From IMG/VR virus record IMGVR_UViG_2623620502_000008: a stretch of 39,935 bases of DNA; one strand, written 5' to 3'. Under the pieces are notes generated by a model that saw nothing but the letters and a program-made list of their open reading frames with translations, was not told where the DNA came from and did not search any database. This stretch comes from a virus. Lineage: Duplodnaviria; Heunggongvirae; Uroviricota; Caudoviricetes. The position numbers and the translations under genes were made by a program. This document shows positions 1 through 38,272 of the stretch, one piece after another (positions within the stretch are counted from its first letter, which is position 1; the number at the start of each line of letters is the position of its first letter).

Positions 1-1719
1 ATGATTTTTAGGGATAGCTTGAGAGTATTACCTTATGGTCGAGTAGATAATGATTTCTTCCAGATAGAAGAAAGACGTTCATGGAATGCAGGGCGATATT
101 ATTGGTCTAATAGAAGGATTTTTGGTTATATTGGAATTACTCAATCCAGTAATAAAGAGCTGAAAGATAAGTCGGGGAGAGAGGGATTCATAAGAAACCA
201 GGCTGCAAGAGAACTGAAAACTATTATATCTAATTTGTTAACTGAACTTGCTGATAGATTTTTTGGTTCACGTTCTGATGACCGTAAAGAGCTTTTAGAA
301 CAAGTTAAGCGTGAAAAAGAGTTAAGAAAATCTGCTCAACAACAAGCTCGAAAATCAACACAAAAAAGTTTTTCAGAAGCTTTGAAGAATCAGACACCAG
401 TTCTTGATGCTTCCTTGGAGGCTGTTAAAAGGCTGAAAACTAAGCTTGATAAAACTGATGGTTCGTTAGATTTAAACTATCTTAAAATTATAGACAGTGA
501 TCTTACAAACTTAGATGCGTTGCGCAGTGAAATTAAAACGCCTATCAAACCTCCAAAACTTGGAATGTATGAAGAGAAATATAGAGACTACAGAGATAAA
601 TTTAATGAGTTCTCTGCGTATATTCTACAAATGAAGTTAGCAATTAATAAACTTGATTCTGAATTAAATAAACTTGAGCCTTCATTGTCAGCGAAAAATC
701 ACCTTGAAAAAAATCAAGGTATTATTAATTCTAAACTAACTAAGTTTAATAACACGATAGAGGAGAAGATACATTCTCTTTTAAAAAAATGGGCCGATGA
801 AATAAAGGTTGATCGAAGTGATTATTATGCTAAAACTATATCAGTTGTTGATTCAATAGATAATGATTCACAAATTGAAAATGTGTTTAATTTGCTCGAT
901 AGTTTATATGTTGAGTCAGTTGATACCCTAACTTTCAAATATCAATCAATAATAAAAGGTCTCGATAGATTATTTGAAGGTATAAACTTAGATTCAGCAT
1001 TCTCATTATCTGAAGAAGAACGCTCATATTTTGAAGAAAAAGCTAAAAGTTTAAACGCGCTTGCACAGTTAGGTATTAGTGTTGAGATAATATCTCATGA
1101 ACTTGAAGAAATGGATTCTATGGTAACCAGAGGACTAAACTCTCTTCCTACTTCTGTAAAAGAACACCCTGGTTTTTCATTGGCGTTAAATGCTCACAGA
1201 TCGCTTACTCAACAAATACGTTTCTTATCACCTTTGAAAATATCAGGTTATCAATCCAGGCAGAGAATAACTGGAAAAAATATCATGGATTATGTCCTGA
1301 AGTTCTTTGGGGAGCGTTTCGAACGGCAACGAATAACTATTGAATTTAGTGAAGAGTTTAAGCAAATCGCAATAACAGATATACCATCAAGGATCTATCC
1401 TGTTTTTACTAATATTATCAACAATGCAATGTATTGGGTCAGTCTGTCAAATAATAGGCTCATAAAGATTGGTTTTGTGAATTCTTTGGTTATCATAGCA
1501 AATTCTGGTCCGGCAATTGATACCGATGATATCCCGCGACTATTTGAACTATTTTATAGCAAAAGAGCAAATGGACATGGGGTAGGTCTGTATCTATGTC
1601 GAGAAAACCTTGCTGTTGCACATCATAAAATATGGTATTCAGAACCTGATGAAGGCGATAACTATTTAATAAAAGATGGCGCTAATTTTGTGATCCAGTT
1701 CAATGGAGTGGAGTTCTAA
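1..1719 (+). CDS. histidine-kinase-like ATPase (H-box-like motif plus GHKL/HATPase_c-like C-terminus; long coiled-coil-rich N-terminal part); possibly 5'-truncated by window edge
   Basis: ORF runs from base 1. Translation shows ISHELEEM (around nt 1081..1116) resembling the HisKA phospho-acceptor H-box, then IINNAMYW (N-box-like), DTDD...ELFYSKR and GHGVGLYLCRENL (D/G-box-like) at the C-terminus. Lys/Glu/Leu-rich heptad-like N-terminal region. Confidence 0.5.
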   Translation: MIFRDSLRVLPYGRVDNDFFQIEERRSWNAGRYYWSNRRIFGYIGITQSSNKELKDKSGREGFIRNQAARELKTIISNLLTELADRFFGSRSDDRKELLEQVKREKELRKSAQQQARKSTQKSFSEALKNQTPVLDASLEAVKRLKTKLDKTDGSLDLNYLKIIDSDLTNLDALRSEIKTPIKPPKLGMYEEKYRDYRDKFNEFSAYILQMKLAINKLDSELNKLEPSLSAKNHLEKNQGIINSKLTKFNNTIEEKIHSLLKKWADEIKVDRSDYYAKTISVVDSIDNDSQIENVFNLLDSLYVESVDTLTFKYQSIIKGLDRLFEGINLDSAFSLSEEERSYFEEKAKSLNALAQLGISVEIISHELEEMDSMVTRGLNSLPTSVKEHPGFSLALNAHRSLTQQIRFLSPLKISGYQSRQRITGKNIMDYVLKFFGERFERQRITIEFSEEFKQIAITDIPSRIYPVFTNIINNAMYWVSLSNNRLIKIGFVNSLVIIANSGPAIDTDDIPRLFELFYSKRANGHGVGLYLCRENLAVAHHKIWYSEPDEGDNYLIKDGANFVIQFNGVEF

Positions 1720-1720
1720 T

Positions 1721-3469
1721 ATGACAGTGGCAAATTATAATTCTCTTGTCCAGAAAACTTTCTGCGAAAATGCAATTCGTTCCGTTGTCATGATTGATGA
1801 CGATTTTCTGACGTATTCTGAATCAATCAGGGCGTTGAATAACGAAGTTGATTTAGACTACAACAAAATTGACTCATCTAAACGAGCCGCTACTCTTGAG
1901 AGCTTTTTTCAATCTAAGAATATGATTTGTGATGTTGACAATGGTTCTGTTAATTTCGATGTGGATCGGATTAGAAAATCAGATCTTATTATTGTAGATT
2001 ATCATCTTGATAATAATGCACCTGATAAAACACTTAAACTATTACAAGATTTGAAAGACTCCGATCATTTAAATATGATTGTAATATATACTAGAGAGAA
2101 TTTAGAAACGGTTTGGATGCAGATATCATCGACTCTCAAAGGTGCTCTGGATATCAACAGCTTGATCATTGACTACGATAATGAAGATGTCCAAAGTTAT
2201 TGGGAAGACGTTGTATTACCGAACTTAAATGATAATGGTAATAAAGCTCTCACAAGAGATGAAACAATAGCCTATATTAAAGACAGTAAGCCTTGTAGAA
2301 GAATTAAAAGATTAATACATGATGATGCTGTGTTGGAGGATCAAAAGGATAAAAACTTCATTGCAAAAATGATTGCAGAATATGCTGTGTCTAGAAATGC
2401 AATTATTTCTAGCAACACATCTGGCAATGTCATTCGGGGTGATGAAAGCGGAGTAAAATGGATTCAATGTGGTAATATCTTTGTCTCCCTATTTCATAAG
2501 GTTCAAGATGATCATGAAAACGATGGAGATAGGATTTGGCAAACTCTCAATGATTCTCTCATTGAATGGAAACCATCTTATTATCAGTTAATAAAATCTG
2601 AAATTCAGAATGCAATCGAAGCTGAGGCTTTATCTTTTGTAAATCATTTGGCTAACGATCATTACGGTCAAGCTGCGTGGTTAAATGAGATATTAAAATC
2701 AGACTCGCCTGATATTAGATGTAGAAATATTGACTTTGTATTTGGTAATTTATCAGAAGAGCTTTATCAAAGACTTAAAAATAATAATACGCTGGATGAA
2801 TTTATCAAAAGTGTTTTTGATAGCTATTCAAATGAATACGCTAACAGCGGAGTTGCTGCATTGCTCCAATATTGCTCTTCAAAAATGGATCTGCCATCAA
2901 ATAATGATACTTATCACGAAATGTATCATGCTTTAAATATGAATTTGTCTTCAAAGAATTTTGAAGATGGTCATATTTCTACTGGCACTATTTTCTTTGA
3001 TACAGAGTCGAACAAATGGTATTTATGTGTATCTGCGGCATGTGATTTGGTTCCTACTCAGGGTAACGACCCTCACCATGTAAGATTAAGTCCGCACAGG
3101 CTCATTAAAGTTCTGGAGCTTTTTAACGCCAGTCAGAGTAAAGCATTGCCATTTGCTGAACATTCGAAATATATATATGTAATGCATAAAAATCAAAGAA
3201 AATATCTCTCTATTTTCGAAGGGGATAAAACGCTTCCTGTTGTTGATTATATGGTGGTGTTGAATCATGGAACAACAGTTGATGGCGAAGAAAAAAATAT
3301 TATTTCTGCCGTGTTTTTAAGTAATATGGATGGCAACGTGCAAAATGTTCCTGTCCGACTCAAACTTAAATCTCAACTGAGAACTGGTTATGCAGAAAGA
3401 TATCAGGCTATAGCGTCTCAGTATAGCTCAAGGATTGGTGTGGATTATGTATCAATGATGCTACCATAA
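1721..3469 (+). CDS. receiver (REC)-domain protein fused to a roughly 450-aa C-terminal domain of unknown function (candidate effector)
   Basis: ATG at 1721 preceded by GGAG-rich sequence (alternative in-frame ATG at 1703). N-terminus has VVMIDDDF (acidic pocket), DLIIVDYHLD (phospho-acceptor Asp context) and MIVIYTREN (conserved Thr) in the order and spacing of CheY-like receivers. Rest shows no motif I recognise. Two-codon gap/overlap with upstream gene implies an operon. Confidence 0.5.
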   Translation: MTVANYNSLVQKTFCENAIRSVVMIDDDFLTYSESIRALNNEVDLDYNKIDSSKRAATLESFFQSKNMICDVDNGSVNFDVDRIRKSDLIIVDYHLDNNAPDKTLKLLQDLKDSDHLNMIVIYTRENLETVWMQISSTLKGALDINSLIIDYDNEDVQSYWEDVVLPNLNDNGNKALTRDETIAYIKDSKPCRRIKRLIHDDAVLEDQKDKNFIAKMIAEYAVSRNAIISSNTSGNVIRGDESGVKWIQCGNIFVSLFHKVQDDHENDGDRIWQTLNDSLIEWKPSYYQLIKSEIQNAIEAEALSFVNHLANDHYGQAAWLNEILKSDSPDIRCRNIDFVFGNLSEELYQRLKNNNTLDEFIKSVFDSYSNEYANSGVAALLQYCSSKMDLPSNNDTYHEMYHALNMNLSSKNFEDGHISTGTIFFDTESNKWYLCVSAACDLVPTQGNDPHHVRLSPHRLIKVLELFNASQSKALPFAEHSKYIYVMHKNQRKYLSIFEGDKTLPVVDYMVVLNHGTTVDGEEKNIISAVFLSNMDGNVQNVPVRLKLKSQLRTGYAERYQAIASQYSSRIGVDYVSMMLP

Positions 3470-3540
3470 TTATTATATTTTAGGCGTGGTGATTTTTTTT
3501 CGCCATGCCTATTTTATATTTATCATCACAATGATGTTGT

Positions 3541-3957
3541 TTATTTTTGTTTAAGTCTTCTAAGCTTCATGCATTCTAATGAGAATAATAATAGAGTTGT
3601 GCTGTATATAAAGCCAGAGTTAGTTAATAACTTTAAATTTAATGCTTCAGGATTTTCACTGAGAAAGTGAAAGGCATAAACTAAGTATACAGCTAAAGTA
3701 GTCGTTCCAATTGTTGGTCCAATATCGCCTTGATCATGAGGTTCAAGGTTTACATTGAACTTGAAGATTAGCCATTCAAATCCCCAAGTAAAAAAAACAA
3801 CTAATATCATGGCTGCGAATAATTTCGCGATGTTATCTGCTGATGGATTCATCAGAACAGATTGTTTCTGAAAAAATTCACAAAGTGAGAGTCCGAAAAA
3901 AATAAAAAAAAGTGGTCTGGAACTAAATTTTTCAAAAACTTTGAATAGGGTTTCCAT
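3541..3957 (-). CDS. small integral membrane protein (about 4 predicted TM segments), hypothetical
   Basis: 138-aa ORF with hydrophobic stretches (LFFIFFGLSL, AAMILVVFFTWGF, TTTLAVYLVYAF, GFIYSTTLLLFSL); AT-rich; immediately downstream of and co-oriented with the P4-type integrase. Confidence 0.4.
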   Translation of the reverse strand: METLFKVFEKFSSRPLFFIFFGLSLCEFFQKQSVLMNPSADNIAKLFAAMILVVFFTWGFEWLIFKFNVNLEPHDQGDIGPTIGTTTLAVYLVYAFHFLSENPEALNLKLLTNSGFIYSTTLLLFSLECMKLRRLKQK

Positions 3958-3995
3958 TTTCTTTACCTTCAGGATTATATTAGCTATTCTGATAC

Positions 3996-5267
3996 TTAGG
4001 CTACCAGAGCATTTGATCTTTGAGCTTGAACGTAATCACTCCACCATTGCATCAAACTCTGTCGCTCTATCAGATATTCTGCACGATTGTATGCTGCGAT
4101 AATTTCATCTTTTTTCGAGTGGGCAAGCGCTGCCTCAAGAACTTCAGCTCTGAATTTACCAGACTCCTCTGCCGCTGTTCGTGCAATAGAACGCATACCG
4201 TGAGCTACAAGCTCGCCTCCGAACCCCATTCGGATGATAGCTGCGTTGGCTGTTTGTTCATGCATATGATTAAGAGGCGCTTTTATGCTGGGGAAAACCC
4301 ATTCTCTATGCCCACTTATTGATTTCATTAATTCAAGGATGCGCAAAGCTTCTTTACTCAAAGGAACTTTGTGAAGCTTTTTCATTTTCATGAAATCAGC
4401 AGGAATGTTCCAAATGCTGTTGGTTGTATCAATATCAGACCACCTTGCGCGAACGGCTTCACCCGGACGAACCCATGTCAACAATTGCCATTCAATTAGC
4501 ATACGTGTTTCCAACCGGATTGACGCATTCGTCAAAGATTCCATAAACCTTGGCAATTCGCTTGGGGGAAGGGCAGGCATATTTTGCTTTTTTGGTTTAC
4601 TGAATCTTTGACCAAGGTTGTCAGCCGGGTTGAACTCAATAAGTTCTTCAGTAGCTGCCCACCGGAAGATTTCATTCAGACGTGAAATGATACGGCGTAG
4701 AGTTTCCAATACGCCTCGTTGCTCAATAGGATCAAGGTGTTGTTTTAAGAGCTTAGGTCGGATCTCATTGATAGGGACATTACCCAGACCGGGAAAGACA
4801 TTTCTCTCTAAGCTGCGCCAGATGTCTGCTGCATGGTCTTGTGAGATACCTGATGTCTTTACCTTCTCATCTAACCATTTCCGCGCTACGGCTTGGAGAG
4901 TGTGCTCAGTAGCACTCTTTAATGCCTTCGCCTTATCGTTGTTATGGATTTGGGGATCAACACCATTTGCCAGAAAGGAGAGATATTCATCACGTAAGGC
5001 TCTGGCTCTTGCAAGGGTAAGGTGAGGATATGTCCCAAGGCTCATTTTGGTTCTTTTCTTGCTCACTGGTACTGCATACCTGAAATACCAATTTTTCTTG
5101 CCTCCTTTCGCCAAAGGAGCGATTCGTAGAATCAGACCATCACCGTCAAACAAGTTGATTTCTTTATCGGCTGGCTTGGTGCTTTTGATTTCAGTGTCAG
5201 TGAGCTTCTTAGCGATTTTTGCCATTTTGGGACCCTCGGTTTTTGGACCCTTCTTAGTGGGTCCCAT
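3996..5267 (-). CDS. tyrosine recombinase, P4-type integrase (IntA-like)
   Basis: 423-aa ORF; N-terminal LTDTEIKSTKP...LFDGDGLILRI...WYFRY arm-binding-type motif typical of P4-family integrases; C-terminal catalytic region with HGMRSIARTAA and AHS...Y. Internal ATG at 5225 (MAKIAKK...) may be the true start. Located beside the ssrA att repeat. Confidence 0.85.
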   Translation of the reverse strand: MGPTKKGPKTEGPKMAKIAKKLTDTEIKSTKPADKEINLFDGDGLILRIAPLAKGGKKNWYFRYAVPVSKKRTKMSLGTYPHLTLARARALRDEYLSFLANGVDPQIHNNDKAKALKSATEHTLQAVARKWLDEKVKTSGISQDHAADIWRSLERNVFPGLGNVPINEIRPKLLKQHLDPIEQRGVLETLRRIISRLNEIFRWAATEELIEFNPADNLGQRFSKPKKQNMPALPPSELPRFMESLTNASIRLETRMLIEWQLLTWVRPGEAVRARWSDIDTTNSIWNIPADFMKMKKLHKVPLSKEALRILELMKSISGHREWVFPSIKAPLNHMHEQTANAAIIRMGFGGELVAHGMRSIARTAAEESGKFRAEVLEAALAHSKKDEIIAAYNRAEYLIERQSLMQWWSDYVQAQRSNALVA

Positions 5268-5390
5268 TCAGGGTGCCATAACTCGTAGTTCTCAGCAATT
5301 CTCACTGGACGACAATAGACGTAAAAAAGCCCGCAGAGCTTGTGCTGTGTGGGCTTAGTAGACTTCATTGAACTTCAAACAACTAAAAAG

Positions 5391-5435
5391 TGGTGGAGCT
5401 GGCGGGAGTTGAACCCGCGTCCGAAATTCCTACAT
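5391..5435. repeat. attL: 45-bp direct repeat identical to the 3' end of ssrA (displaced tmRNA 3' fragment)
   Basis: tggtggagctggcgggagttgaacccgcgtccgaaattcctacat occurs at 5391..5435 and at 38876..38920; flanks diverge immediately outside. Confidence 0.85.
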
Positions 5436-5520: not shown

Positions 5521-6567
5521 TTAATGTTCTGTCGCCAATCTGTCGCCATTGTAGGTCAACGAAGGTTGAGCCTTCCCTTTGTTTGTTACAATTTCATCAA
5601 AGATAGCTGGATTATTATCTTTCAGTAATCTTGCTAGTATAATGATTTGCCCAGACGAGCCATCATCCTTGAATGAAAGGAAATTATCGGTAATATCAAG
5701 AATATCAATGGTAAATTTGAAGTAGGTTTCAATTGTATCGCCAAGTTCAATGCTGGACATGAAGTTAGTAATCATTTCATATCCATCAAAGTATAAAGTT
5801 GCATGTTCATTTAACTCCATGGGAGTTAGGCAAAGCATTCGATTAAGTTCGGATAAGTGTTTTTCTATTGAATGAAGAGATTGCATTTGACGGATTAAAA
5901 CTTCGGCAAACTGAGAGCCACGATTAGATGAATGTATCTTCTCTAGGTTTTTTAGTATATCAACCCAGTGATTATTTACTTCACGTATGTATTCTTTATC
6001 TGTATTTTTAGGCCGTCCCTTCTCTGGTGAGCTATTTATGAAAATATATCTATATAGATGTATTGGGTAGTTTATTTTATAACTTATCTCTTTAGTACCA
6101 TAATGACGTTCGCGTTTAATGGTTTTGTTAGGTAAATTGGTGAAATAATCAGTAACGAACTTTAAATGGCTATAGTAGCTATCAGATAGATTCTTTTGCT
6201 TGGTTTCCTCAATTTGTCGGTTTGTTTGAACTGTGCGGTGTATGTTTGCTACGACAGCAACAAATGGTATGGACAAAGAAAGTAAGGCGATAGGAAGCTT
6301 GCTAATTGCAATGAAATTATTAAAGCCCTCACTATCAAATTGAGGGGAATGTCCAAGCCAGGAAAATATACCAAAGTATATCGCTGAAAATACAGGAATC
6401 CTAAGTGATTGTTTAAATAAGTATTGACTTGTTAATGGCCTTTCATCCATGTTAAAGCCTTTTTTTGATACGCATAGATATAATTCAAGGCATATATATA
6501 AAAAATATATTATGATAAGTAAGTACGATATCCATGGGTATTGTTGGATATAGTTATTAACAAGCAC
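5521..6567 (-). CDS. membrane-anchored hypothetical protein (3 N-terminal TM helices plus about 230-aa soluble domain); prophage cargo between int and attL
   Basis: 348-aa ORF, AT-rich; start overlaps the int stop by 11 nt (same strand, suggesting translational coupling); TM segments YLLIIIYFLYICLELYLCV, IPVFSAIYFGIFSWL, IALLSLSIPFVAVVANI. Confidence 0.5.
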   Translation of the reverse strand: MLVNNYIQQYPWISYLLIIIYFLYICLELYLCVSKKGFNMDERPLTSQYLFKQSLRIPVFSAIYFGIFSWLGHSPQFDSEGFNNFIAISKLPIALLSLSIPFVAVVANIHRTVQTNRQIEETKQKNLSDSYYSHLKFVTDYFTNLPNKTIKRERHYGTKEISYKINYPIHLYRYIFINSSPEKGRPKNTDKEYIREVNNHWVDILKNLEKIHSSNRGSQFAEVLIRQMQSLHSIEKHLSELNRMLCLTPMELNEHATLYFDGYEMITNFMSSIELGDTIETYFKFTIDILDITDNFLSFKDDGSSGQIIILARLLKDNNPAIFDEIVTNKGKAQPSLTYNGDRLATEH

Positions 6568-7597
6568 TTTCTAATTTTCTCCATCCAAGGTTAGCAAGAG
6601 GATTTTTGGTTACAGCATCTTCCAGATGGTCGGGAGCGAAGTGGGCGTAAATCATTGTCATTTTTATATCGACATGGCCCAGAATATCGCGCAGCACCAG
6701 TATGTTTCCGCCATTCATCATAAAGTGACTTGCAAATGTATGTCGTAATACGTGTGTGCATTGCCCTTCTGGTAGCTCGATACCAGCTCGTTTTACCGCA
6801 CGTTCAAAAGCTTTCCTACAAGGTGTAAATAATTTTCCCCTATTCTTAGGCAGTTCTTCATATAAATCCTTTGAAATAGGCACTGTTCGGTTTTTCTTTC
6901 CTTTAGTCTTGGTATAAGTGATACGGTATTTTGATACCTGATGACTCTGTAGGTTTTCGGCTTCGCTCCAGCGTGCGCCGGTGGCCAAGCATATTTTTGC
7001 AATCATCAGCAGACTGGGGCTTTGAGAATCAGCACAGGCATCCAGCAGACGTTTAATTTCTTCCGGGGTCAGGAACGCCAATTCACCCTCAGCAATTTTA
7101 AATGTTGGCAGCCCAGCAAGCGGGTTGGGGGCTGACCAGTGGCCCAGCTTTTTCAGTGTACCAAAAACAGATGATAGGTTGCGCTGTTCAAGATTTACCG
7201 TGCGGGGCTTAACGGGCGACATAAGCGTGCCATCTTCATTTCGTACTTCACCTTTTAACCGTGCTTCGCGGTATTTCGTAAACTCACCAGCTGTCAGTTC
7301 TGAGGCGATGGGATCGCCTAGACCATTACAGATAATTCTAAGTTTCGCCATGAGGCGCTTGGGGTCTGCGAGTGTTTGACCATACAGGGAATACCACAGC
7401 TCAATTAATTCTGATAGATGTCGCCGATCTTCCTTTTCCCCTAGCCATGGTTTTTTGTTCACTTCTTCCATTGTGAAGCTTTCAAACGCAATGGCTTCGC
7501 CTTTGGTAGCAAATTGCTTACGCACGCGCTTACCATTGCGTCCATTGGGATAGCACTCACACAACCATTTTCCGTTCGGCTGTTTTCTGATGGTCAT
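6557..7597 (-). CDS. int: phage integrase (P2/186-type tyrosine recombinase)
   Basis: 346-aa ORF; catalytic region motifs ATGARWSE, HVLRHTFAS, and MIYAHF; position next to cI and near attL. Confidence 0.9.
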   Translation of the reverse strand: MTIRKQPNGKWLCECYPNGRNGKRVRKQFATKGEAIAFESFTMEEVNKKPWLGEKEDRRHLSELIELWYSLYGQTLADPKRLMAKLRIICNGLGDPIASELTAGEFTKYREARLKGEVRNEDGTLMSPVKPRTVNLEQRNLSSVFGTLKKLGHWSAPNPLAGLPTFKIAEGELAFLTPEEIKRLLDACADSQSPSLLMIAKICLATGARWSEAENLQSHQVSKYRITYTKTKGKKNRTVPISKDLYEELPKNRGKLFTPCRKAFERAVKRAGIELPEGQCTHVLRHTFASHFMMNGGNILVLRDILGHVDIKMTMIYAHFAPDHLEDAVTKNPLANLGWRKLESAC

Positions 7598-7600
7598 AAG

Positions 7601-8239
7601 TTAGAGGTTCTTGATTACTTTGACTGCACGTCCTACGACTTCCACATCATCTACAGAACATTCAAATGAAGTGTCATCTTGGTTAACTACTATTTTGTTT
7701 CCGGGTATGCGCGCAATTTTGACGATGCTTTTAACTCCGTCCATATCGACTAACCAGAAGCCATTACTGACTTGTTTAACAGACGTATCCACTACAAAGC
7801 TATCATTAGCTGTTTTAACAAATAAAGCGTTGGATGAGTCACCATCGAGCAGGCTGCTATCAAGAAGAATTTCATCACTTGGCTGCAGTTCGCCGTTCTT
7901 CAGTTCAACACGTTTGATGCTAGGAGCAACGATCTTAGAAAGTGGTCTTACAGTGACGGGAGGTTCATTTTTGAGATTTGTTTCTTCGTTCTCACACGCA
8001 TACATATCTCCTTGACCAGTAGCCAGCCATAGAAGGGAAACTCCTGTTTCAAGGGCACATTGGATTACCCATTCGGCAGGAAAGCTATCCCTTAAGTATC
8101 TGTTAGCCATAGTGCTTTTTGATACTTCCAGATGTTCGCAGAGCTGCTGTCGTGAGCTGAAGTTGTAAGCCTTAATAAGCCTATTAATCGCATCGCGCCC
8201 ACCACTATCATTCCCCGCCTTGATTAAACTCATAATCAA
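7601..8239 (-). CDS. cI: CI-like immunity repressor (N-terminal HTH)
   Basis: 212-aa ORF; HTH-like QQLCEHLEVSKSTMANRYL near N-terminus; divergent from apl/cII as in phage 186. Confidence 0.75.
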   Translation of the reverse strand: MIMSLIKAGNDSGGRDAINRLIKAYNFSSRQQLCEHLEVSKSTMANRYLRDSFPAEWVIQCALETGVSLLWLATGQGDMYACENEETNLKNEPPVTVRPLSKIVAPSIKRVELKNGELQPSDEILLDSSLLDGDSSNALFVKTANDSFVVDTSVKQVSNGFWLVDMDGVKSIVKIARIPGNKIVVNQDDTSFECSVDDVEVVGRAVKVIKNL

Positions 8240-13843: not shown

Positions 13844-14032
13844 ATGCAGGACTATTTTTTGGAGTCTTTGAAGCTCCAGCGCATTGATTTTTTTCTTAAG
13901 CTTGTAGCGGCTAGTGAGTGTAGTGATGAAGAGAAGGGGCTGGCTTTGCAGTGGGTTTCTGAACTGACAGATGAACTCATGGCAAAAATCAGAACCCACG
14001 AATACAACCGCTCAATGGATGTCATCAGCTGA
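13844..14032 (+). CDS. small protein, possible Tum-like antirepressor (N-terminal portion equivalent)
   Basis: 62-aa ORF with aggagga RBS; LexA box upstream; followed by DinI-like ORF, the arrangement of 186-like SOS-inducible antirepressor modules. Confidence 0.4.
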   Translation: MQDYFLESLKLQRIDFFLKLVAASECSDEEKGLALQWVSELTDELMAKIRTHEYNRSMDVIS

Positions 14033-14042
14033 GGTGACTTTT

Positions 14043-14276
14043 ATGCGCATTGAAATAATGATCGATAAAGAGCAGAAGATTAGCCAGTCTACCCTGGATG
14101 CCCTTGAATCCGAGCTTTACCGCAATCTGCGCCCCCTGTATCCCAAAACGGTAATTCGTATCCGCAAAGGTAGCTCTAACGGTGTGGAACTGACCGGACT
14201 GCAACTGGACGAAGAAAGAAAACAAGTGCTGAAAATTATGCAGAAGGTGTGGGAAGACGACTGCTGGCTGCATTGA
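14043..14276 (+). CDS. DinI-family protein (Tum C-terminal-like / DinI-like)
   Basis: 77-aa ORF starting MRIEIMIDKEQ... and ending ...WEDDCWLH, resembling DinI-family proteins (MRIEV... N-terminus, acidic aromatic C-terminus); gaggtg RBS upstream. Confidence 0.7.
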   Translation: MRIEIMIDKEQKISQSTLDALESELYRNLRPLYPKTVIRIRKGSSNGVELTGLQLDEERKQVLKIMQKVWEDDCWLH

Positions 14277-14391: not shown

Positions 14392-15306
14392 TTGGCAACG
14401 GATCTGAACTCAATGGCGGATAAGACTCAATCAGTAAGTATTGTGTATCAAGGCAAAGCTCTCGACGATCATAAGATGGATATTCTTTCGTTTGCGAAAA
14501 GTTTGCAGGGGCTAGGTGAGGCTATCTACTCTGCAAATGAGATTGTAAACGGAGGGCGAGACATTGAAGTTAACGTTGACGCTGAATTGATAGCCGGTTC
14601 CTTTGGGTTTGATATTGAGGTTGTACAACATCTAGCTAATGCTAAAGATGTTGTACAAATTTTAGGTTTGTCAGCCATTCCTTTAGCCGTTGGCGGTGCT
14701 ACAGTTTTAGAGGTTCTCAAGAAGCTTAACGGGCGTAAGATCGACATAGTCGAGAAAGCTAACGGTAGTGACAAAGTTAAGCTGAAAGTCGATGGTGAAG
14801 AGATTGTTTGCTCTGAAGATGTCGAAAAAATCGTTAATGCCCCAGAGATTCGTAAGGCTGTTGACGCGTTTGTCAGACAGCCTCTGTTACAAGATGGTAT
14901 CGACAATTTTGTGGTAAAAAAATCGCGCACCTCTAAGAAAGAAATCCTCAAAATTCATAAAGATGAGGCAGAAGAGTTTAAGTCGCCAAAAGTTCTCTTT
15001 GAAACCAAAGAAGAAGTTGACGAATTTGAAACAACCGTGACATTCGTTTCGGCGCATACTGACAAAAAAAGTGGCTGGCGTGTTGAGTTTGGCGGTGAAA
15101 AGCGCAATGTCAGAATGGAAGATAATGAGTTCATCAAGCTTGTTACTGGACCAGACGCCCCCAAAATTTTTGGCGAATTGTTTGCTGTGAAGATGAAGAA
15201 AATTGTGAAAGATTCCGGTGGCCAGGTAGACGAAAAGTTATCGATCATCAAAGTGGGTCGACACTTTGCCGCCAAAGATAGAAAAATAAAACCTGATGCG
15301 GATTAA
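14392..15306 (+). CDS. hypothetical soluble protein (cargo; first gene of 3-gene cluster)
   Basis: 304-aa Lys/Glu-rich ORF with no motif I recognise (alternative start 14413); at the position of P2 tin/old accessory genes (after A, before cos). Confidence 0.45.
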   Translation: MATDLNSMADKTQSVSIVYQGKALDDHKMDILSFAKSLQGLGEAIYSANEIVNGGRDIEVNVDAELIAGSFGFDIEVVQHLANAKDVVQILGLSAIPLAVGGATVLEVLKKLNGRKIDIVEKANGSDKVKLKVDGEEIVCSEDVEKIVNAPEIRKAVDAFVRQPLLQDGIDNFVVKKSRTSKKEILKIHKDEAEEFKSPKVLFETKEEVDEFETTVTFVSAHTDKKSGWRVEFGGEKRNVRMEDNEFIKLVTGPDAPKIFGELFAVKMKKIVKDSGGQVDEKLSIIKVGRHFAAKDRKIKPDAD

Positions 15307-15308
15307 AA

Positions 15309-15572
15309 ATGTCTATAGATATTAGTGTGTTAGGATGGTTGGGGCTGCTTGTTGCAGCTCCAGCTATATTTATAGGTGCTAGAGTGGCTATACGTAGCCT
15401 GCTCGATCGAGTTATTGTCGAAACAAAAGTTTCTATCACTTATACTGATGCAAACAAAAATGTCTATAAAACAAATATTTATATAAACAATGATGATGAG
15501 TTAATAAAGCTCATCGATGATATAGCAGAGAAAAATAAGCGTGAGAGGAAGGAGTCAGCCTCTCATGCCTGA
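15309..15572 (+). CDS. small membrane protein (single N-terminal TM helix), hypothetical
   Basis: 87-aa ORF starting 3 nt after previous stop; TM segment LGWLGLLVAAPAIFIGARVAI. Confidence 0.4.
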   Translation: MSIDISVLGWLGLLVAAPAIFIGARVAIRSLLDRVIVETKVSITYTDANKNVYKTNIYINNDDELIKLIDDIAEKNKRERKESASHA

Positions 15573-15981
15573 ACAAAAGAAAACAAGCGGTAAAGCAGTC
15601 GGTGTTACAGGTGGCGGCGGTGTAGGCCTTTTCCTAATAAAGCTGGCTAGCTTCATTACAGATCCAACATGGAAAGACCTTTACATTGCTTCAATACCGA
15701 TGGTGTCAATTCTTTTAAGCGAAGTTTTTACTTTTGCATGGACGATTTATGCTGTTGATCCGCAAGAAATCAAACTGAAAAGGCGGTTGAAGGCTCTGAA
15801 GAAGCAAGCCGAAGCAGTTTTAAATGCACCATCGTCCCCTGTTTCTCCAGAAATGCGAGAGAAAGCGCAGGCTCGTTACGACGTGATCTGTGGAATTGAA
15901 ATGGGAATTTACCCCCTCTCAATTGTAAATACGCTAGATGGAAAAGTATCCCCCACAGCGCAAACGCCGGACGTTAAATAG
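15565..15981 (+). CDS. small membrane protein (2 predicted TM helices), hypothetical
   Basis: ATG at 15565 with aggaaggag RBS, overlapping previous stop; Gly-rich then hydrophobic segments (GVGLFLIKLASFI; IPMVSILLSEVFTFAWTIYAV). Confidence 0.4.
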   Translation: MPEQKKTSGKAVGVTGGGGVGLFLIKLASFITDPTWKDLYIASIPMVSILLSEVFTFAWTIYAVDPQEIKLKRRLKALKKQAEAVLNAPSSPVSPEMREKAQARYDVICGIEMGIYPLSIVNTLDGKVSPTAQTPDVK

Positions 15982-16044
15982 CAGTTTCTACTTTGCATGT
16001 CTATGCTGCATGAAATCGCATGATCGTTTGAGGATCGTTTTTGC

Positions 16045-16073
16045 AAAAGCCCGCCAGAACTGGCGGGCTTTTG
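16045..16073. terminator. rho-independent terminator-like hairpin (A-tract/GC stem/T-tract)
   Basis: aaaagcccgccag-aa-ctggcgggcttttg, perfect 9-bp GC-rich stem flanked by A and T runs, downstream of the 3-gene cluster. Confidence 0.5.
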
Positions 16074-16117
16074 CGTAGAGCATGCATCTGCATGAAAACC
16101 ACTACATAAAGCGGGCA

Positions 16118-16136
16118 GGCGTGGCGGGGATACGAG
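16118..16136. other. candidate cos (cohesive-end) site of the prophage
   Basis: ggcgtggcggggatacgag; first 13 nt match my recollection of the P2/186 cohesive-end sequence (GGCGTGGCGGGGA...); located in the non-coding stretch between the late-accessory region and the portal side. Confidence 0.3.
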
Positions 16137-16224
16137 CGCGCGCATTGAGTTAAAATTTCTTGAGTTGATGAAAATAAGATGTATTTTAATTTGGCACAGA
16201 AAAACCTAATAACTCACAAGGATA

Positions 16225-17160
16225 ATGATAATAATGCAAATAGTTTCCATCATAAATTATAAAGGTGGCGTTGGTAAAACAACAGTTACGTCTAATTTAG
16301 CCGCTGAATTAGCATTCCGAGGAAAGAATGTTTTAGTTCTGGATATGGATGCTCAGGCAAGCCTGACATTTTCGTTTCTAACTCCCGATTATTGGGATGA
16401 ACATCTTAAAAATGAAAGGACCATTAAAAACTGGTTTGATTGTATTAGTCAGGGAGAGCAAACAATGCCTCTTTCGACTCTAAGAGTACGACCTGAACCT
16501 GTTAATAGTAGATTTGATAGAAAAGGTGGATGTTTGGATTTAATATCTTCCCACCTCGGGTTGATAAATGTTGATCTTGAGCTTGCGACTCTTCTAGGAG
16601 GGGCTAGCCCCAGTCAAACTCAAAAAAAATATCTTAAAGTTCATGGTAAACTTAGAGAGGAACTTCAAATACTAGCTGACGAAATGAATTATGATGTTGT
16701 TTTAATTGATTGTCCACCTAACTTTAATATCGTAACAAAAAATGCTTTGATTGCATCAGATAAGATTTTGATACCAGCAAAACCTGATTATTTGTCAACG
16801 CTAGGTATTGATTATTTAAAAAGAAGCGTAGATTCTCTAGTTACAGACTATAATTTCTATGCCGATAAAGATGAAGATTATGAAAGGGTATCTCCTGAGA
16901 TTCTCGGAGTAGTTTTTACTATGATTCAAATTCATTCAGAACAACCTATTGCCGCGCAAAGACAGTATATTGCGCAGACAAAACGTCTAGGTGTTCCCGT
17001 ATTTGATGCTATTTTTAGGGAGAATAAAACTATCTTTGCTGATGCCCCTAGAGATGGAATTCCTGTAGCATTAATTGGCTACTCGCATTCAACTCACTCT
17101 TCTATTGTAGGAGAGATTGAGGATTTTGTTGATGAATTCCTTCAAAAGATTGGAGAATAA
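16225..17160 (+). CDS. ParA/MinD/Soj-family P-loop ATPase (deviant Walker A)
   Basis: 311-aa ORF; NYKGGVGKTTVTSNLA deviant Walker A near N-terminus (likely start at ATG 16234), DMDAQ (A'-like) and VLIDCPP (Walker B-like); strongly AT-rich. Confidence 0.7.
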   Translation: MIIMQIVSIINYKGGVGKTTVTSNLAAELAFRGKNVLVLDMDAQASLTFSFLTPDYWDEHLKNERTIKNWFDCISQGEQTMPLSTLRVRPEPVNSRFDRKGGCLDLISSHLGLINVDLELATLLGGASPSQTQKKYLKVHGKLREELQILADEMNYDVVLIDCPPNFNIVTKNALIASDKILIPAKPDYLSTLGIDYLKRSVDSLVTDYNFYADKDEDYERVSPEILGVVFTMIQIHSEQPIAAQRQYIAQTKRLGVPVFDAIFRENKTIFADAPRDGIPVALIGYSHSTHSSIVGEIEDFVDEFLQKIGE

Positions 17161-17162
17161 AA

Positions 17163-17558
17163 GTGAGTAAAGCTAAAACTTTAACTGTGCTATTTCGTGA
17201 ATTACAAGATGCAGTTCTTGAACTCAATGAAGGGGAATTGGAAAAAATTATTTCAGGCGAGTATCAATTCGTCCTTAAGGTAGTTAAAAAACGTAATAGT
17301 ACTGGTGCAAAGATAAGTTCAGTAGATAATTTTAGCTATAACGAATTGCTTGTTTTACTTAACCAGTGTGAGTCAAGAGAACAAGGTTGCGAGCTTTTGT
17401 CGCGTGAGCTTAAGACTAAATCTGAGTTTGAAAAATTCGCTCGTCATGTCGAGGTCGCTGTAATGAAAAGCGATAAACTCGAGAAAATTAGAGATAATAT
17501 TATTGAGTCGACAGTAGGTGCTAAACTCCGTTCTGATGCTATTCAGAATAAAAAGTAA
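17163..17558 (+). CDS. hypothetical protein, partner of ParA-like ATPase (helical, charged)
   Basis: 131-aa ORF with GTG start 2 nt after ParA-like stop, ggagaa RBS; no recognisable motif. Confidence 0.45.
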   Translation: MSKAKTLTVLFRELQDAVLELNEGELEKIISGEYQFVLKVVKKRNSTGAKISSVDNFSYNELLVLLNQCESREQGCELLSRELKTKSEFEKFARHVEVAVMKSDKLEKIRDNIIESTVGAKLRSDAIQNKK

Positions 17559-28227: not shown

Positions 28228-28825
28228 TCTGCTGCCATCGGGGTCAACTTCACTGGAGCGCCGACTGGCGCAGACCTGTAGCGGGATTTCTGATCTGCAG
28301 GTGCCGCTGCGTGACTTGTGGAATCCGGCTACCTGCCCGGTCAGCTTCCTGCCTTATCTCGCCTGGGCGTTCTCTGTGGATCGCTGGGACGAAGGCTGGA
28401 CAGAAAGCGTCAAGCGCCAGGTGGTGAAGGATGCTTTTTATATTCATCAGCATAAAGGGACCACCAGTGCCGTGCGGCGGGTGGTGGAGCCGTTCGGCTT
28501 TCTGATCCGCATTATTGAGTGGTGGCAGACCGGAGAGGCACCGGGCACGTTTCGTCTGGATATCGGCGTGCAGGACCAGGGCATCACTGAAGATACCTAT
28601 CTGGAACTTGAGCGGCTGATAAGCGATGCCAAACCATGTAGCCGTCACATGATCGGCATGTCCATCAATCTGCAGACCAGCGGTCCGCATTGGGTGGGGG
28701 CCGCCAGCTATCTTGGCGAAGAAATCACGATCTATCCGTATATCAACGAAACAATTATTTCCGGCGGCACCGCGCATGAAGGTGGGGCGGTCCATGTTAT
28801 TGACACAATGAGAGTGAATCCATGA
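28220..28825 (+). CDS. I: tail protein I
   Basis: 201-aa ORF. Confidence 0.75.
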   Translation: MNSLLPSGSTSLERRLAQTCSGISDLQVPLRDLWNPATCPVSFLPYLAWAFSVDRWDEGWTESVKRQVVKDAFYIHQHKGTTSAVRRVVEPFGFLIRIIEWWQTGEAPGTFRLDIGVQDQGITEDTYLELERLISDAKPCSRHMIGMSINLQTSGPHWVGAASYLGEEITIYPYINETIISGGTAHEGGAVHVIDTMRVNP

Positions 28826-30552
28826 GCACAAAATTTTATACCCTGCTGACGGATATTGGCGCGGCGAAACTTGCCAGCGCCGCCGCGCTCGGTGTGCCTT
28901 TAAAAATTACCCATATGGCGGTCGGCGATGGCGGCGGAACATTGCCAACGCCGGACGCAAAGCAGACAGCATTGGTAAATGAGAAACGCCGGGCTGCGCT
29001 GAATATGCTCTATATCGACCCGCAGAACAGCAGCCAGATTATTGCCGAACAGGTGATCCCAGAAAACGAGGGCGGTTGGTGGATACGTGAAGTGGGCCTG
29101 TTTGATGAGTCCGGGGCATTGATTGCCGTGGGCAACTGCCCGGAAAGCTATAAGCCACAACTGGCTGAAGGCAGCGGGCGCACCCAGACCGTGCGCATGG
29201 TGCTGATTACCAGCAGTACGGACAATATCACCCTGAAAATCGACCCTGCTGTCGTGCTGGCAACCCGTCATTATGTAGATCAACAAATAGAAATTCATGA
29301 GCAATCGCGCCGCCATCCTTCTGCGTCTTTGACAGAAAAGGGATTTGTACGTCTGTATAGCGGTGTGGAAAGCAATGATGAAACAGTCGCTGCAACGCCA
29401 AAAGCAGTGAAAATAGCGATGGATAATGCCAGCGCCAGACTGGCAAAAGACCGCAATGGTTCTGATATTCCCAATCCGGCACTGTTTGTTCAGAATCTGG
29501 GATTGAAAACGACTGTTGATAAAGCTGCATCAGCGATTCAGCCAGGAGATTATGGAATTGGCCTGGCTTATCTGAAAACCATGGGAACCAAATCGCAATT
29601 TTTTGCTTATGGTACAGCTGTCGGATATCCAGAAGTGCCAACACATGGTGCTGGTTTCCAGGCCTGTTACAACGACAATCGACGTGCACAGATTTATGTC
29701 GCTAATGATGGCAAGATGTACTGTCGATTCAGCATGTTATCGAAAATTGCCGATGATGAAACACCGTGGAATCAGGTGTTCACCAGTGCACATTATCCAG
29801 AAGCATCAGTGAGTGTTAAAGGAATGGTGCAACTGGGGAACGATGTAAACAGCGTGTCAGAAAATGTTGCGGCGACATTGAAAGCGGTAAAAATTGCGAT
29901 GGACAACGCCAGCGCGAGACTGGCAAAGGACCGCAATGGTGCTGATATTCCTGACCCGACTTTGTTTATTCAGAATCTGGGACTTAAACCGACGGTTGAT
30001 AAGGCTGAAAGTGCTCTGCAACAGGGAGCATACGGAATCGGTAGCAATAATAACTACGAAATGGGTGAGGTTTCACAGTTTCTTGCATATTCAGGTAATG
30101 CAGATGAAGTGCCATCGAATGGTGCAGGTTTTCAGGCTGCGTATAACAAGAACAGACGCGCGCAGATTTTCATCACCGGAGCAGGGGAAATGTATCACCG
30201 TTTCAGCGGCTCTGATACGGTTAAAGACAATACAACACTATGGCGTCGGGGTGTTTGTGAAGATGAATTTTCATTTGGCAGCAATTATCACCGAATAACT
30301 GGCGGTGTGCTGAAGCAGTTTTTTAACAGTTATTTTTCCGGGGCAACTGGTGTGGTGAATAAAGAGTATCAGGTGAATTTTCCGACACCATTTGCCCGTC
30401 AGTGCTGGTACGTGATCCCCGTTTTCCGTTCGTCACACGGTGGGAGTGTTGAGGGGGTCGCCATTACAGCTATTACTGCAACTGGCTTTACTCTGAGCAT
30501 CACCGGAGATAACGGTGGATGGAATATTGGGTTTATTGCGGAGGGGGTCTGA
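28822..30552 (+). CDS. H: tail fiber protein H (contains an internal roughly 350-bp duplication)
   Basis: 576-aa ORF; N-terminal MSTKFYTLLTDIGAAKLA typical of P2-like tail fibers; duplicated block noted separately. Confidence 0.8.
   Translation: MSTKFYTLLTDIGAAKLASAAALGVPLKITHMAVGDGGGTLPTPDAKQTALVNEKRRAALNMLYIDPQNSSQIIAEQVIPENEGGWWIREVGLFDESGALIAVGNCPESYKPQLAEGSGRTQTVRMVLITSSTDNITLKIDPAVVLATRHYVDQQIEIHEQSRRHPSASLTEKGFVRLYSGVESNDETVAATPKAVKIAMDNASARLAKDRNGSDIPNPALFVQNLGLKTTVDKAASAIQPGDYGIGLAYLKTMGTKSQFFAYGTAVGYPEVPTHGAGFQACYNDNRRAQIYVANDGKMYCRFSMLSKIADDETPWNQVFTSAHYPEASVSVKGMVQLGNDVNSVSENVAATLKAVKIAMDNASARLAKDRNGADIPDPTLFIQNLGLKPTVDKAESALQQGAYGIGSNNNYEMGEVSQFLAYSGNADEVPSNGAGFQAAYNKNRRAQIFITGAGEMYHRFSGSDTVKDNTTLWRRGVCEDEFSFGSNYHRITGGVLKQFFNSYFSGATGVVNKEYQVNFPTPFARQCWYVIPVFRSSHGGSVEGVAITAITATGFTLSITGDNGGWNIGFIAEGV
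29385..30210. repeat. internal direct duplication within tail fiber gene H (two roughly 350-bp copies, about 29385..29735 and 29865..30210)
   Basis: Nucleotide and protein blocks recur, e.g. AATPKAVKIAMDNASARLAKDRNGSDIPNPALFVQNLGLKTTVDKA vs AATLKAVKIAMDNASARLAKDRNGADIPDPTLFIQNLGLKPTVDKA, each followed by ...NGAGFQA.YN.NRRAQI... Confidence 0.7.
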
Positions 30553-38251: not shown

Positions 38252-38272
38252 ACCTGCTACGGCAGGTTTTTA
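38252..38272. terminator. terminator hairpin shared by convergent ogr and BRCT-like gene
   Basis: acctgc-tacg-gcaggttttt immediately after the ogr stop. Confidence 0.5.

What the first reader, a model, noticed from the sequence alone, without database searches (positions are those of the whole stretch)
5521..6567. Membrane-anchored cargo gene translationally coupled to the prophage integrase, wedged between int and attL
The 348-aa ORF starts 11 nt inside the 3' end of int on the same strand and ends ~85 bp from the att repeat. It is much more AT-rich than int and has three N-terminal TM helices followed by a soluble domain with no motif I recognise. Being co-transcribed with int would express it in the lysogen, which fits a lysogen-protective role such as superinfection exclusion.
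Basis: partly seen in the sequence, partly recalled or inferred. Interest (0 to 1): 0.55.

Follow-up and report, generated by a model that had tools for sequence, protein, structure and literature searches.

The report
Prophage membrane gene, likely anti-phage defence
A real, swappable cargo gene sits between the integrase and the attachment site of a Fels-2/186-like E. coli prophage; its membrane part is distantly related to the cell-killing membrane effector of the retron Ec48 defence system, so it is probably an untested single-gene anti-phage defence made by the lysogen.

Summary
A 348-codon ORF (5521-6567, minus strand) starts at a GTG 11 nt inside the end of int. It stops 85 nt before the 45-nt ssrA-derived att repeat, is AT-rich, and has three N-terminal hydrophobic helices.

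It is a real gene under purifying selection (dN/dS 0.155). It is also true cargo: Fels-2 has an empty slot, and related prophages carry at least five different genes there.

The N-terminal module (TM helices plus an invariant N-x-HRT-x-QT-xx-QI motif on a long stalk helix) defines a large unnamed family of about 1,750 clusters. The C-terminal domains are highly variable. Roughly half of 133 sampled members weakly match curated models of the retron Ec48 two-TM effector. None reaches the family cut-off, and no reverse transcriptase lies nearby.

Relatives sit in accessory slots of P2-like, PM2-like and filamentous prophages, often abutting int or the repressor gene.

Best reading (about 0.5): a stand-alone sensor-effector abortive-infection protein expressed from the lysogenic cI-int transcript. 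Superinfection exclusion remains a live rival. Nothing has been tested experimentally.

The parts
5521..6567 (-). Cargo gene X, long form: 348 aa, GTG start, stop at 5521-5523
   Evidence: ORF list and sequence. PHROG 17460, E 1e-155, function unknown. dN/dS 0.155 overall. The 11-nt overlap with int is conserved in homologues.
5521..6450 (-). Alternative short form: 309 aa from ATG at residue 40. This is the form annotated by NCBI (WP_000344474.1)
   Evidence: Annotation of the identical E. coli VG12A2 locus. Met40 is nearly invariant in the family. Whether it is used as a start is unknown.
6466..6534 (-). TM1 (residues ~12-34). It is an extra N-terminal helix found in the enterobacterial subfamily and absent from the two-TM relatives
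   Evidence: Hydropathy and AF2 helix 12-34. Sequence diverges (23-80% identity) but stays hydrophobic and in frame. It is frameshifted in one allele.
6352..6405 (-). TM2 (residues ~55-72), moderately hydrophobic
   Evidence: AF2 helix 49-70. Invariant P58, G66 and W70.
6247..6312 (-). TM3 (residues ~86-107). In the model it runs straight into the stalk helix
   Evidence: Hydropathy 85-111. AF2 gives a single helix 90-143.
6148..6246 (-). Conserved membrane-proximal motif and stalk (residues 108-140): N108, H110-R111-T112, Q114-T115, Q118-I119, K125-N126, D129, H134, K136
   Evidence: Invariant columns. hhalign of the enteric subfamily against the two-TM clade: 98.5% probability, E 2.3e-15, over residues 74-148.
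5524..6132 (-). Variable C-terminal domain (residues 146-348), predicted cytoplasmic, alpha/beta with a helical bundle
6557..7597 (-). Fels-2-type tyrosine integrase. Its last ~10 codons belong to the exchangeable cassette
   Evidence: Pfam Int_N and Phage_integrase. 92.7% identical to Fels-2 Int. Junction sequences diverge after the codons for KNPL.
7601..8233 (-). 186-type CI repressor, first gene of the leftward lysogenic transcript
   Evidence: Pfam Phage_CI_repr and Phage_CI_C. Annotation. In phage 186, int lies downstream of cI on the leftward transcript (PMC7708051).
5436..5547 (-). Conserved att-proximal arm block. It is shared by all Fels-2-like phages whatever the cargo. It contains the direct repeat GGCGACAGA (5539-5547 and 5528-5536) and supplies the last 8 codons and the stop of gene X
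   Evidence: Six-way DNA alignment. That the repeats are Int arm-type or Apl sites is inference.
5391..5435 (.). att core repeat at the int-proximal prophage end (copy of the ssrA 3' end)
   Evidence: Exact 45-nt direct repeat with 38876-38920. tmRNA gene at 38876-39238.
5327..5341 (-). Terminator-like hairpin just downstream of the att repeat (by position probably the displaced ssrA terminator). It is the first terminator-like site downstream of cI-int-X on that strand
   Evidence: Consensus scan. A pattern match only.

Best explanation
Gene X is an exchangeable accessory gene of a Fels-2/186-like prophage integrated at ssrA.

**Expression (inferred).** It is read through from the lysogenic cI-int transcript. 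Translation starts at, or right next to, the int stop codon. The protein would therefore be present in the lysogen.

**Topology (predicted).** It is an inner-membrane protein with its N-terminus outside, three TM helices, and a ~200-residue domain in the cytoplasm.

**Two modules.**
- The TM2-TM3-stalk module is a distant relative of the two-TM cell-killing effector of the retron Ec48 (type IV retron) defence system, and of similar CBASS effectors.
- The C-terminal domain diversifies much faster.

**Proposed mechanism (inferred, not shown).** The cytoplasmic domain holds the membrane module inactive. It senses a component or consequence of infection by another phage. The module then assembles and depolarises or permeabilises the inner membrane. 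This aborts the infection and protects the lysogen population and the prophage. The protein works alone, without a reverse transcriptase or msDNA.
For: **Real, selected gene.**
- dN/dS is 0.034 for the N-domain, 0.20 for the C-domain and 0.039 for int.

**Variable slot with defined borders.**
- The slot is empty in Fels-2.
- At least five different cargos were seen.
- The cassette runs from the last codons of int to a conserved att arm block.
- The int-att interval is reported as a minor defence hotspot of P2-like phages, holding 3% of systems (PMC13586616).

**One N-domain family, many C-domains.**
- The N-domain profile finds 1,750 cluster representatives.
- N-domains form 1 BLAST component and C-domains 44, among 191 proteins.

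**Link to defence effectors.**
- 70 of 133 members match PADLOC '2TM_IV' (best E 3.9e-13).
- 63 of 133 match NCBIfam retron_Ec48_2TM (best E 1.1e-9).
- Pfam Retron_Ec48_antiviral is on record, weakly, for some members.
- The window protein itself matches the PADLOC CBASS '2TM' effector at E 2e-4.
- Its subfamily links to the matching clade at hhalign probability 98.5%.

**What the Ec48 effector does.** Its TM helices are required for defence, and the authors propose it kills the cell (bioRxiv 10.1101/2020.06.21.156273).

**Phage contexts in three virus groups.**
- int-att slot of 186-like prophages in enterobacteria and Vibrio.
- Directly after the repressor stop (TAAATG) in PM2-like tailless prophages.
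- End of a filamentous prophage.
- The canonical P2 GpA-GpQ defence hotspot in Pseudomonas.

**Topology.** Lys+Arg counts follow the positive-inside rule, placing the C-domain in the cytoplasm.
Against: - There are no experimental data for any member.
- The window protein has no direct match to the retron Ec48 models. The link is transitive.
- All family matches lie below the curated 65-bit cut-off.
- Two-TM-plus-helix modules are low in complexity, so weak matches carry limited weight.
- In 33 species-level genomes of the wider two-TM clade, the neighbours are ordinary housekeeping genes rather than defence islands. Only 3 of 116 neighbours are integrases.
- A pore-former made constitutively from the lysogeny transcript would need tight self-inhibition. 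That is assumed, not shown.
- Membrane location next to lysogeny genes is also typical of superinfection-exclusion proteins.
Confidence: 0.5

Rival explanations
1. Superinfection exclusion. X sits in the inner membrane and blocks genome entry of incoming phages, in the manner of P22 SieA, T4 Imm or HK97 gp15. The variable domain would match the ejection or tape-measure proteins of particular phages. Infected cells survive.
For: - Membrane protein encoded beside int and cI, and probably made in the lysogen.
- Variable domain consistent with specificity for different phages.
- Another cargo of the same slot (L003, 222 aa) is also predicted to be a membrane protein.
- The comparison with SieA, Imm and gp15 rests on general knowledge of those proteins.
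Against: - The variable domain is predicted to be cytoplasmic, not periplasmic.
- The conserved membrane module resembles effectors of abortive-infection systems.
- There is no match to any annotated exclusion family in Pfam, and the only strong PHROGs match is a family of unknown function.
Confidence: 0.2
2. A phage-benefit or host-physiology function unrelated to defence. Examples are tuning of induction or lysis, membrane stress signalling, or another form of lysogenic conversion.
For: - In the wider family many members stand alone among housekeeping genes with no phage or defence neighbours.
- There is no known enzymatic or sensor domain.
Against: - Hypervariable, patchily distributed cargo is more typical of conflict genes than of core physiology.
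- It occupies slots documented as defence-enriched (PMC13586616; PMC11630473).
- A C-domain evolving about six times faster than the N-domain is likewise more typical of conflict genes.
Confidence: 0.2
3. A membrane toxin acting as an addiction or stabilisation module that penalises loss of the prophage.
For: - Homology to a cell-killing effector module.
- Position inside the lysogeny transcript.
Against: - No antitoxin candidate: int lies upstream and att downstream.
- Family members have no conserved partner gene.
Confidence: 0.06
4. A decaying or non-functional ORF.
For: - One allele has a frameshift in TM1.
- Annotation pipelines disagree on the start codon.
Against: - dN/dS is 0.155, and 0.034 in the N-domain.
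- The gene is intact in 14 E. coli genomes and in several other genera.
- Invariant motif residues hold across a family of about 1,750 clusters.
Confidence: 0.03

Closest known systems
Retron Ec48 (Retron-Eco6, type IV retron) two-TM effector
   Same: - The hydrophobic N-terminal helices followed by a helix are distantly homologous at family level: PADLOC 2TM_IV in 70 of 133 members, NCBIfam retron_Ec48_2TM in 63 of 133.
- The Ec48 effector is described as having a signal-peptide-like segment plus two TM helices (PMC7736814). That matches the three hydrophobic segments here.
   Different: - No reverse transcriptase or msr/msd RNA lies nearby in the window or in any context examined.
- Scores are below the family cut-off, and the window protein has no direct hit.
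- X is longer (348 aa against a model of about 219-235 positions) and has its own variable C-terminal domain.
- It is encoded in the lysogeny operon of a prophage.
CBASS / Pycsar two-TM membrane effectors (SLATT-like)
   Same: - Weak direct match of X residues 55-163 to the PADLOC CBASS '2TM' effector, E 2e-4.
- Single family members weakly match SLATT_6, SAVED-TM and PycTM models.
- Same idea: a small TM module that kills on a signal.
   Different: - No cyclase gene and no nucleotide-binding domain.
- The matches are too weak for membership.
Lambda RexA/RexB
   Same: It works alike in outline. In lambda, a membrane channel (RexB) and a cytoplasmic sensor (RexA) are co-transcribed with the repressor in the lysogen, and they abort infection by depolarising the membrane. 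This rests on general knowledge of lambda.
   Different: - No sequence relationship was found.
- Here sensor and membrane parts would be one polypeptide.
- The mechanism is untested.
Prophage superinfection-exclusion proteins beside int or the repressor (P22 SieA, lactococcal Sie2009, S. thermophilus Ltp)
   Same: Membrane-associated, encoded in the lysogeny module and expressed in lysogens. This rests on general knowledge of those proteins.
   Different: - No homology was detected.
- The predicted cytoplasmic variable domain and the Ec48-like module point to another mode of action.
Accessory/defence hotspots of P2-like phages (tin/old locus, Z/fun locus, int-att interval)
   Same: - X occupies the int-att interval, already reported as a minor defence hotspot (PMC13586616).
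- A Pseudomonas family member occupies the classical GpA-GpQ hotspot (PMC9122126).
   Different: - X is not recognised by PADLOC as any described system.
- The cassette borders defined here (int tail and att arm block) were not mentioned in the passages I read of those papers.

Membership tests
Retron type IV (Ec48) effector | Scores above the curated cut-off of NCBIfam NF038235 retron_Ec48_2TM (65 bits) | tested here: not met
   The window protein has no hit at E up to 10. The individually scanned members scored 13.5 and 20.9 bits. The best E-value among 133 members was 1.1e-9.
Retron type IV (Ec48) effector | Encoded next to, or overlapping, a retron reverse transcriptase with msr/msd | tested here: not met
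   The upstream neighbour is int and the downstream neighbour is att. No RT domain is present in the prophage hotspot ORFs. No RT-like ORF was found in 33 family loci, and RVT was not among the 25 commonest of 80 neighbour families listed.
Retron type IV (Ec48) effector | N-terminal hydrophobic segment plus two TM helices | tested here: met
   Hydropathy and the AF2 model. The Ec48 description is from PMC7736814.
Retron type IV (Ec48) effector | TM-dependent anti-phage defence by cell killing | not testable with these tools
   Needs phage challenge and membrane-integrity assays.
CBASS two-TM effector | Operon with a CD-NTase cyclase | tested here: not met
   No such gene lies next to X.
CBASS two-TM effector | Significant match to the effector model | tested here: inconclusive
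   PADLOC PDLC00691, E 2e-4, 19.2 bits, residues 55-163.
Cargo of the P2-like int-att accessory hotspot | Lies between int and the att core, inside the phage genome | tested here: met
   Coordinates. In the Cartapus genome record, the same slot is carried between the ogr-side genes and int. That this is a virion-packaged genome is my reading of the record.
Cargo of the P2-like int-att accessory hotspot | Content differs between closely related phages while the flanks are conserved | tested here: met
   The slot is empty in Fels-2. Five cargo types were seen. Of 195 E. coli genomes with this int type, 14, 29, 20, 11 and 2 carry each cargo.
Cargo of the P2-like int-att accessory hotspot | Recognised as a described defence system | tested here: not met
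   PADLOC gives only the weak two-TM effector hit. DefenseFinder was not available.
Superinfection-exclusion proteins | Homology to a known Sie/Imm/Cor/Ltp family | tested here: not met
   No Pfam hit. PHROG 17460 has no known function.
Superinfection-exclusion proteins | Blocks phage DNA entry while the cell survives | not testable with these tools
   Needs infection assays.
Lambda Rex-like system | Homology to RexA or RexB | tested here: not met
   No Pfam match.

The most novel reading that the evidence does not exclude
X represents a large, unnamed family (about 1,750 clusters at 50% identity) of autonomous one-protein abortive-infection systems.

- An Ec48-retron-like membrane killing module has been freed from the retron and fused to a rapidly diversifying cytoplasmic sensor.
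- Three unrelated kinds of temperate phage (P2-like, PM2-like tailless, filamentous) carry it in slots coupled to their lysogeny genes.
- In Fels-2-like phages it is swapped as a cassette. The borders are the last codons of int and the first att arm sites.
- The nearly invariant Met40 may give a second, two-TM isoform that regulates the three-TM form, much as dual-start holins do.
Probability: 0.3. Interest if true: 0.7.

Novelty: new variant of a known kind. Interest (0 to 1): 0.5.

Why it matters
If confirmed, this would add a widespread single-gene defence family.
- It would show that the retron Ec48-type membrane effector can work without a retron.
- It offers a simple system for studying how a cytoplasmic sensor gates a membrane-killing module: one protein, natural C-domain swaps, and an invariant membrane-proximal motif.
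- It defines the int-att cargo slot of Fels-2-like phages to the nucleotide. That helps when mining prophages for new lysogen-expressed genes.

Tried and rejected
**Direct domain searches.** Pfam, NCBIfam and PHROGs on the window protein gave nothing informative.

**Structure searches.**
- Foldseek against viral structures: nothing at E below 0.03.
- I checked for a HEPN Rx4-6H motif. 'RQMQSLH' exists in X, but neither R nor H is conserved, so this was rejected.
- afdb50 was not available.

**PDB sequence-profile searches.** Nothing better than E 0.09.

**Literature.**
- Search for the protein accession: no paper.
- Search for stand-alone Ec48-like effectors: nothing relevant.

**Attempts to obtain a true Ec48 effector sequence for a profile-profile test.** These failed. 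tblastn on plasmids found one unrelated hit. The third homologue search returned only 'hypothetical protein' entries.

**Locus search.** It was repeated with the two-TM clade only.

**Retron partner elsewhere in the prophage.** The GpA-GpQ hotspot holds a PDC-S42 candidate and a ParA-like ATPase, with no RT.

**Pseudogene idea.** Rejected on dN/dS.

Full report
**What is there**

The window is E. coli chromosome, 100% identical to strain VG12A2 over the region tested. On the minus strand the order is:
- smpB, then the tmRNA gene ssrA (38876-39238);
- a 33.5-kb 186/Fels-2-like prophage;
- a second copy of the last 45 nt of ssrA (5391-5435, exact repeat of 38876-38920).

At the int-proximal end of the prophage lie:
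- the 186-type CI repressor (7601-8233);
- a Fels-2-type integrase (6557-7597; 92.7% identical to Fels-2 Int);
- the ORF in question (5521-6567).

The ORF starts at a GTG that overlaps the last 11 nt of int. It stops 85 nt before the att repeat. GC is 0.31-0.36 in the ORF against 0.42-0.49 in int.

**Is it a real gene, and where does it start?**

Selection. Against a 91%-identical E. coli allele:
- dN/dS is 0.034 for residues 40-145;
- dN/dS is 0.20 for residues 191-348;
- dN/dS is 0.155 overall;
- int gives 0.039.

Homologues at 35-99% identity occur in Escherichia, Citrobacter, Enterobacter, Klebsiella, Cronobacter, Cedecea and others. Eight IMG/VR viral contigs carry the gene.

NCBI annotates a 309-aa form from the ATG at codon 40. 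Three points favour the long form:
- The first 39 codons remain an open, hydrophobic helix in homologues, although only 23-80% identical there.
- The same 11-nt overlap with int is kept in two Citrobacter homologues, at 67% protein identity (GTG start) and 43% (ATG start).
- The related cassettes L002 (ATGA overlap) and L004 (stop, 2 nt, ATG) also begin at the int stop.

Two points keep a two-TM short isoform possible:
- One allele (L060) has a 2-nt deletion that frameshifts TM1.
- Met40 is nearly invariant.

**It is cargo in a defined slot**

Occupants of the int-att slot:
- Fels-2 has nothing between int and attP, a gap of 117 nt.
- RE-2010 and phage Cartapus carry a 401-aa gene there.
- E. 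coli relatives carry a 339-aa protein (L002), a 222-aa protein (L003) or a 343-aa protein (L004).

Among 5,426 complete E. coli genomes, 195 have this int type. The cargo counts are:

| Cargo | Genomes |
|---|---|
| X | 14 |
| L003 type | 29 |
| L004 type | 20 |
| 401-aa gene | 11 |
| L002 type | 2 |

Cassette borders:
- A six-way alignment shows that about 100 nt before the att core are conserved whatever the cargo.
- The cargo ORFs run into this block. The last eight codons and the stop of X (…GDRLATEH*) are encoded by it.
- The block carries a direct repeat GGCGACAGA, 11 nt start-to-start. These are probably Int arm-type or Apl sites, which is inference.
- On the other side, sequences diverge within the last ~10 codons of int.

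The cassette therefore runs from the tail of int to the first arm sites. A 2026 survey already lists the int-att interval as a minor defence hotspot of P2-like phages, holding 3% of their systems (PMC13586616).

**The protein family**

X, L002 and L004 share an N-terminal module but differ in the rest.
- Against the L002-like clade, identity is about 70% for residues 40-145.
- It is only 14-17% for residues 191-348.

Invariant residues cluster where TM3 leaves the membrane: N108, H110-R111-T112, Q114-T115, Q118-I119, K125-N126, D129, H134, K136.

A profile of this module finds 1,750 cluster representatives at E of 1e-3 or better, and 1,317 at 1e-10 or better. The library holds 1.84 billion proteins. 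Hits are mostly 270-350 aa. They are mainly Gammaproteobacteria (Vibrio, Shewanella, Pseudomonas, Alteromonas and others), with some Betaproteobacteria and others. All are labelled hypothetical.

Most relatives have two TM helices. The enterobacterial subfamily has an extra N-terminal one. hhalign links the two groups at 98.5% probability, E 2.3e-15.

Among 191 proteins, the N-domains form one BLAST-connected group. The C-domains split into 44.

**Genomic contexts**

Family members were found in:
- the int-att slot of 186-like prophages in enterobacteria and in Vibrio splendidus;
- PM2-like tailless Vibrio prophages, as the last gene before the prophage end, with the start codon directly following the LexA-like repressor's stop (TAAATG);
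- the end of a filamentous (Zot-type) Vibrio prophage;
- the classical GpA-GpQ defence hotspot of a Pseudomonas P2-like prophage.

The variable locus of tailless and filamentous Vibrio prophages is reported to be enriched for defence genes (PMC11630473).

In 33 species-level genomes of the wider two-TM clade the picture differs:
- The gene stands alone among unrelated housekeeping genes.
- Only 3 of 116 neighbours are integrases.
- No partner gene recurs, and no reverse transcriptase was seen.

**Relation to known effectors**

- X itself weakly matches the PADLOC CBASS '2TM' effector (E 2e-4, residues 55-163).
- Of 133 family members, 70 match PADLOC '2TM_IV' (best 3.9e-13; positions about 9-167 of 235).
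- 63 of the 133 match NCBIfam retron_Ec48_2TM (best 1.1e-9).
- The two members scanned individually scored 13.5 and 20.9 bits, far below the 65-bit cut-off.
- The precomputed Pfam family Retron_Ec48_antiviral is on record, weakly, for some members.

I read '2TM_IV' as the type IV retron effector. The type IV retron (Ec48) is the one linked to a two-TM membrane protein (PMC7736814), and the other two libraries agree.

In retron Ec48, deleting the effector's TM helices abolishes defence. The authors propose that the effector kills the cell when phage proteins inhibit RecBCD (bioRxiv 10.1101/2020.06.21.156273).

X is not a member of that family: there is no direct hit, no RT, and it is longer with a domain of its own. 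Its membrane module is probably a distant relative.

**Structure**

AlphaFold2 on a 29-sequence alignment gives pLDDT 81.7. The model has helices at 12-34 and 49-70, and one long helix at 90-143 (TM3 plus stalk). A mixed alpha/beta domain follows.

Lys+Arg counts by segment:

| Segment | Lys+Arg |
|---|---|
| 1-11 | 0 |
| 34-56 | 5 |
| 73-87 | 0 |
| 108-145 | 5 |

These fit N-terminus out and C-domain in.

**How it most likely works**

Shown:
- a selected, exchangeable prophage gene;
- a conserved membrane module with a distant, sub-threshold sequence relationship to abortive-infection effector models;
- a fast-evolving second domain;
- a tight junction with a lysogeny gene in two unrelated phage types.

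Inferred:
- X is transcribed with cI-int in the lysogen. In phage 186, int lies downstream of cI on the leftward transcript (PMC7708051). No terminator-like site intervenes on that strand.
- X may be translationally coupled to int.
- The cytoplasmic domain senses infection and releases the membrane module. The module then depolarises or permeabilises the membrane. In outline this is a one-protein analogue of lambda RexAB.

I put this at about 0.5. The rivals are:
- superinfection exclusion, about 0.2;
- a non-defence membrane function, about 0.2;
- an addiction toxin, about 0.06;
- a dead ORF, about 0.03.

**Novelty and verdict**

The slot as a hotspot is already published, and lysogen-expressed membrane defence genes are a known kind. 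Three things appear to be new:
- this particular large, unnamed family;
- an Ec48-like module working without a retron and joined to a hypervariable domain;
- the nucleotide-level cassette borders.

All functional claims are untested. Interest is moderate (0.5): this is a good, cheap candidate for experiment rather than a surprise.

Noticed in passing
window 1-5267: A second integrative island lies immediately after the att repeat, so ssrA is occupied in tandem. It carries a P4-type integrase (3996-5267, -), a 138-aa membrane ORF (3541-3957, -), a 588-aa protein with a Response_reg_2 receiver domain (1703-3469, +), and a 572-aa HEF_HK/HATPase_c protein running off the window start (1-1719, +). 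This could be a two-gene conflict or signalling module.
   Followed up: partly
window 14392-17558: This is the classical P2 GpA-GpQ hotspot of the same prophage. It holds a 304-aa protein matching the PADLOC candidate PDC-S42 (E 8e-44), a 146-aa ORF, a ParA-like AAA_31 ATPase (311 aa) and a 131-aa ORF. There is no reverse transcriptase.
   Followed up: partly
window 5528-5547: The direct repeat GGCGACAGA occurs twice, 11 nt start-to-start, inside the last codons of gene X. It lies in a block conserved in all Fels-2-like phages, including those with an empty slot. The repeats are probably Int arm-type or Apl binding sites. Different cargo ORFs borrow their last codons and stop codon from this block.
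   Followed up: partly
window 6448-6450 (codon 40 of X); L060:1431-1600: Met40 is nearly invariant across the family and is the start that NCBI annotates. In E. coli OkiPb01677 a 2-nt deletion frameshifts the TM1 region upstream of it. Two isoforms (three-TM and two-TM) may exist.
   Followed up: partly
L003:3222-3890 (E. coli C21) and 28 other E. coli genomes: A different cargo of the same slot is an unrelated 222-aa predicted membrane protein. It also ends in the conserved att block (…GGTLAAES*). It is the commonest occupant found, in 29 genomes.
   Followed up: no
L024:1084-2289 (phage Cartapus), L023:204-1409 (RE-2010): A 401-aa cargo gene occupies the same slot. In Cartapus it is annotated 'putative RES protein, NAD+ binding domain'. 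It is present in 11 E. coli genomes, including LF82.
   Followed up: no
window 38270-38752: A 160-aa ORF lies at the other prophage end, next to ssrA. It has weak BRCT and PDC-S48 matches. The gene at the corresponding position in Cartapus is annotated 'putative exonuclease'.
   Followed up: no
window 13971-14276: A DinI-like protein is encoded just after the replication gene A.
   Followed up: no
window 29323-29561 and 29803-30041: A 239-nt internal direct repeat (71% identity, 480 nt apart) lies inside the 576-aa ORF at 28822-30552, by position probably a tail-fibre gene.
   Followed up: no
L010:3423-4820 (Vibrio splendidus prophage): A 465-aa gene with no Pfam match is inserted between CI and int in a Vibrio 186-like prophage. 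That prophage also carries a family member after int.
   Followed up: no
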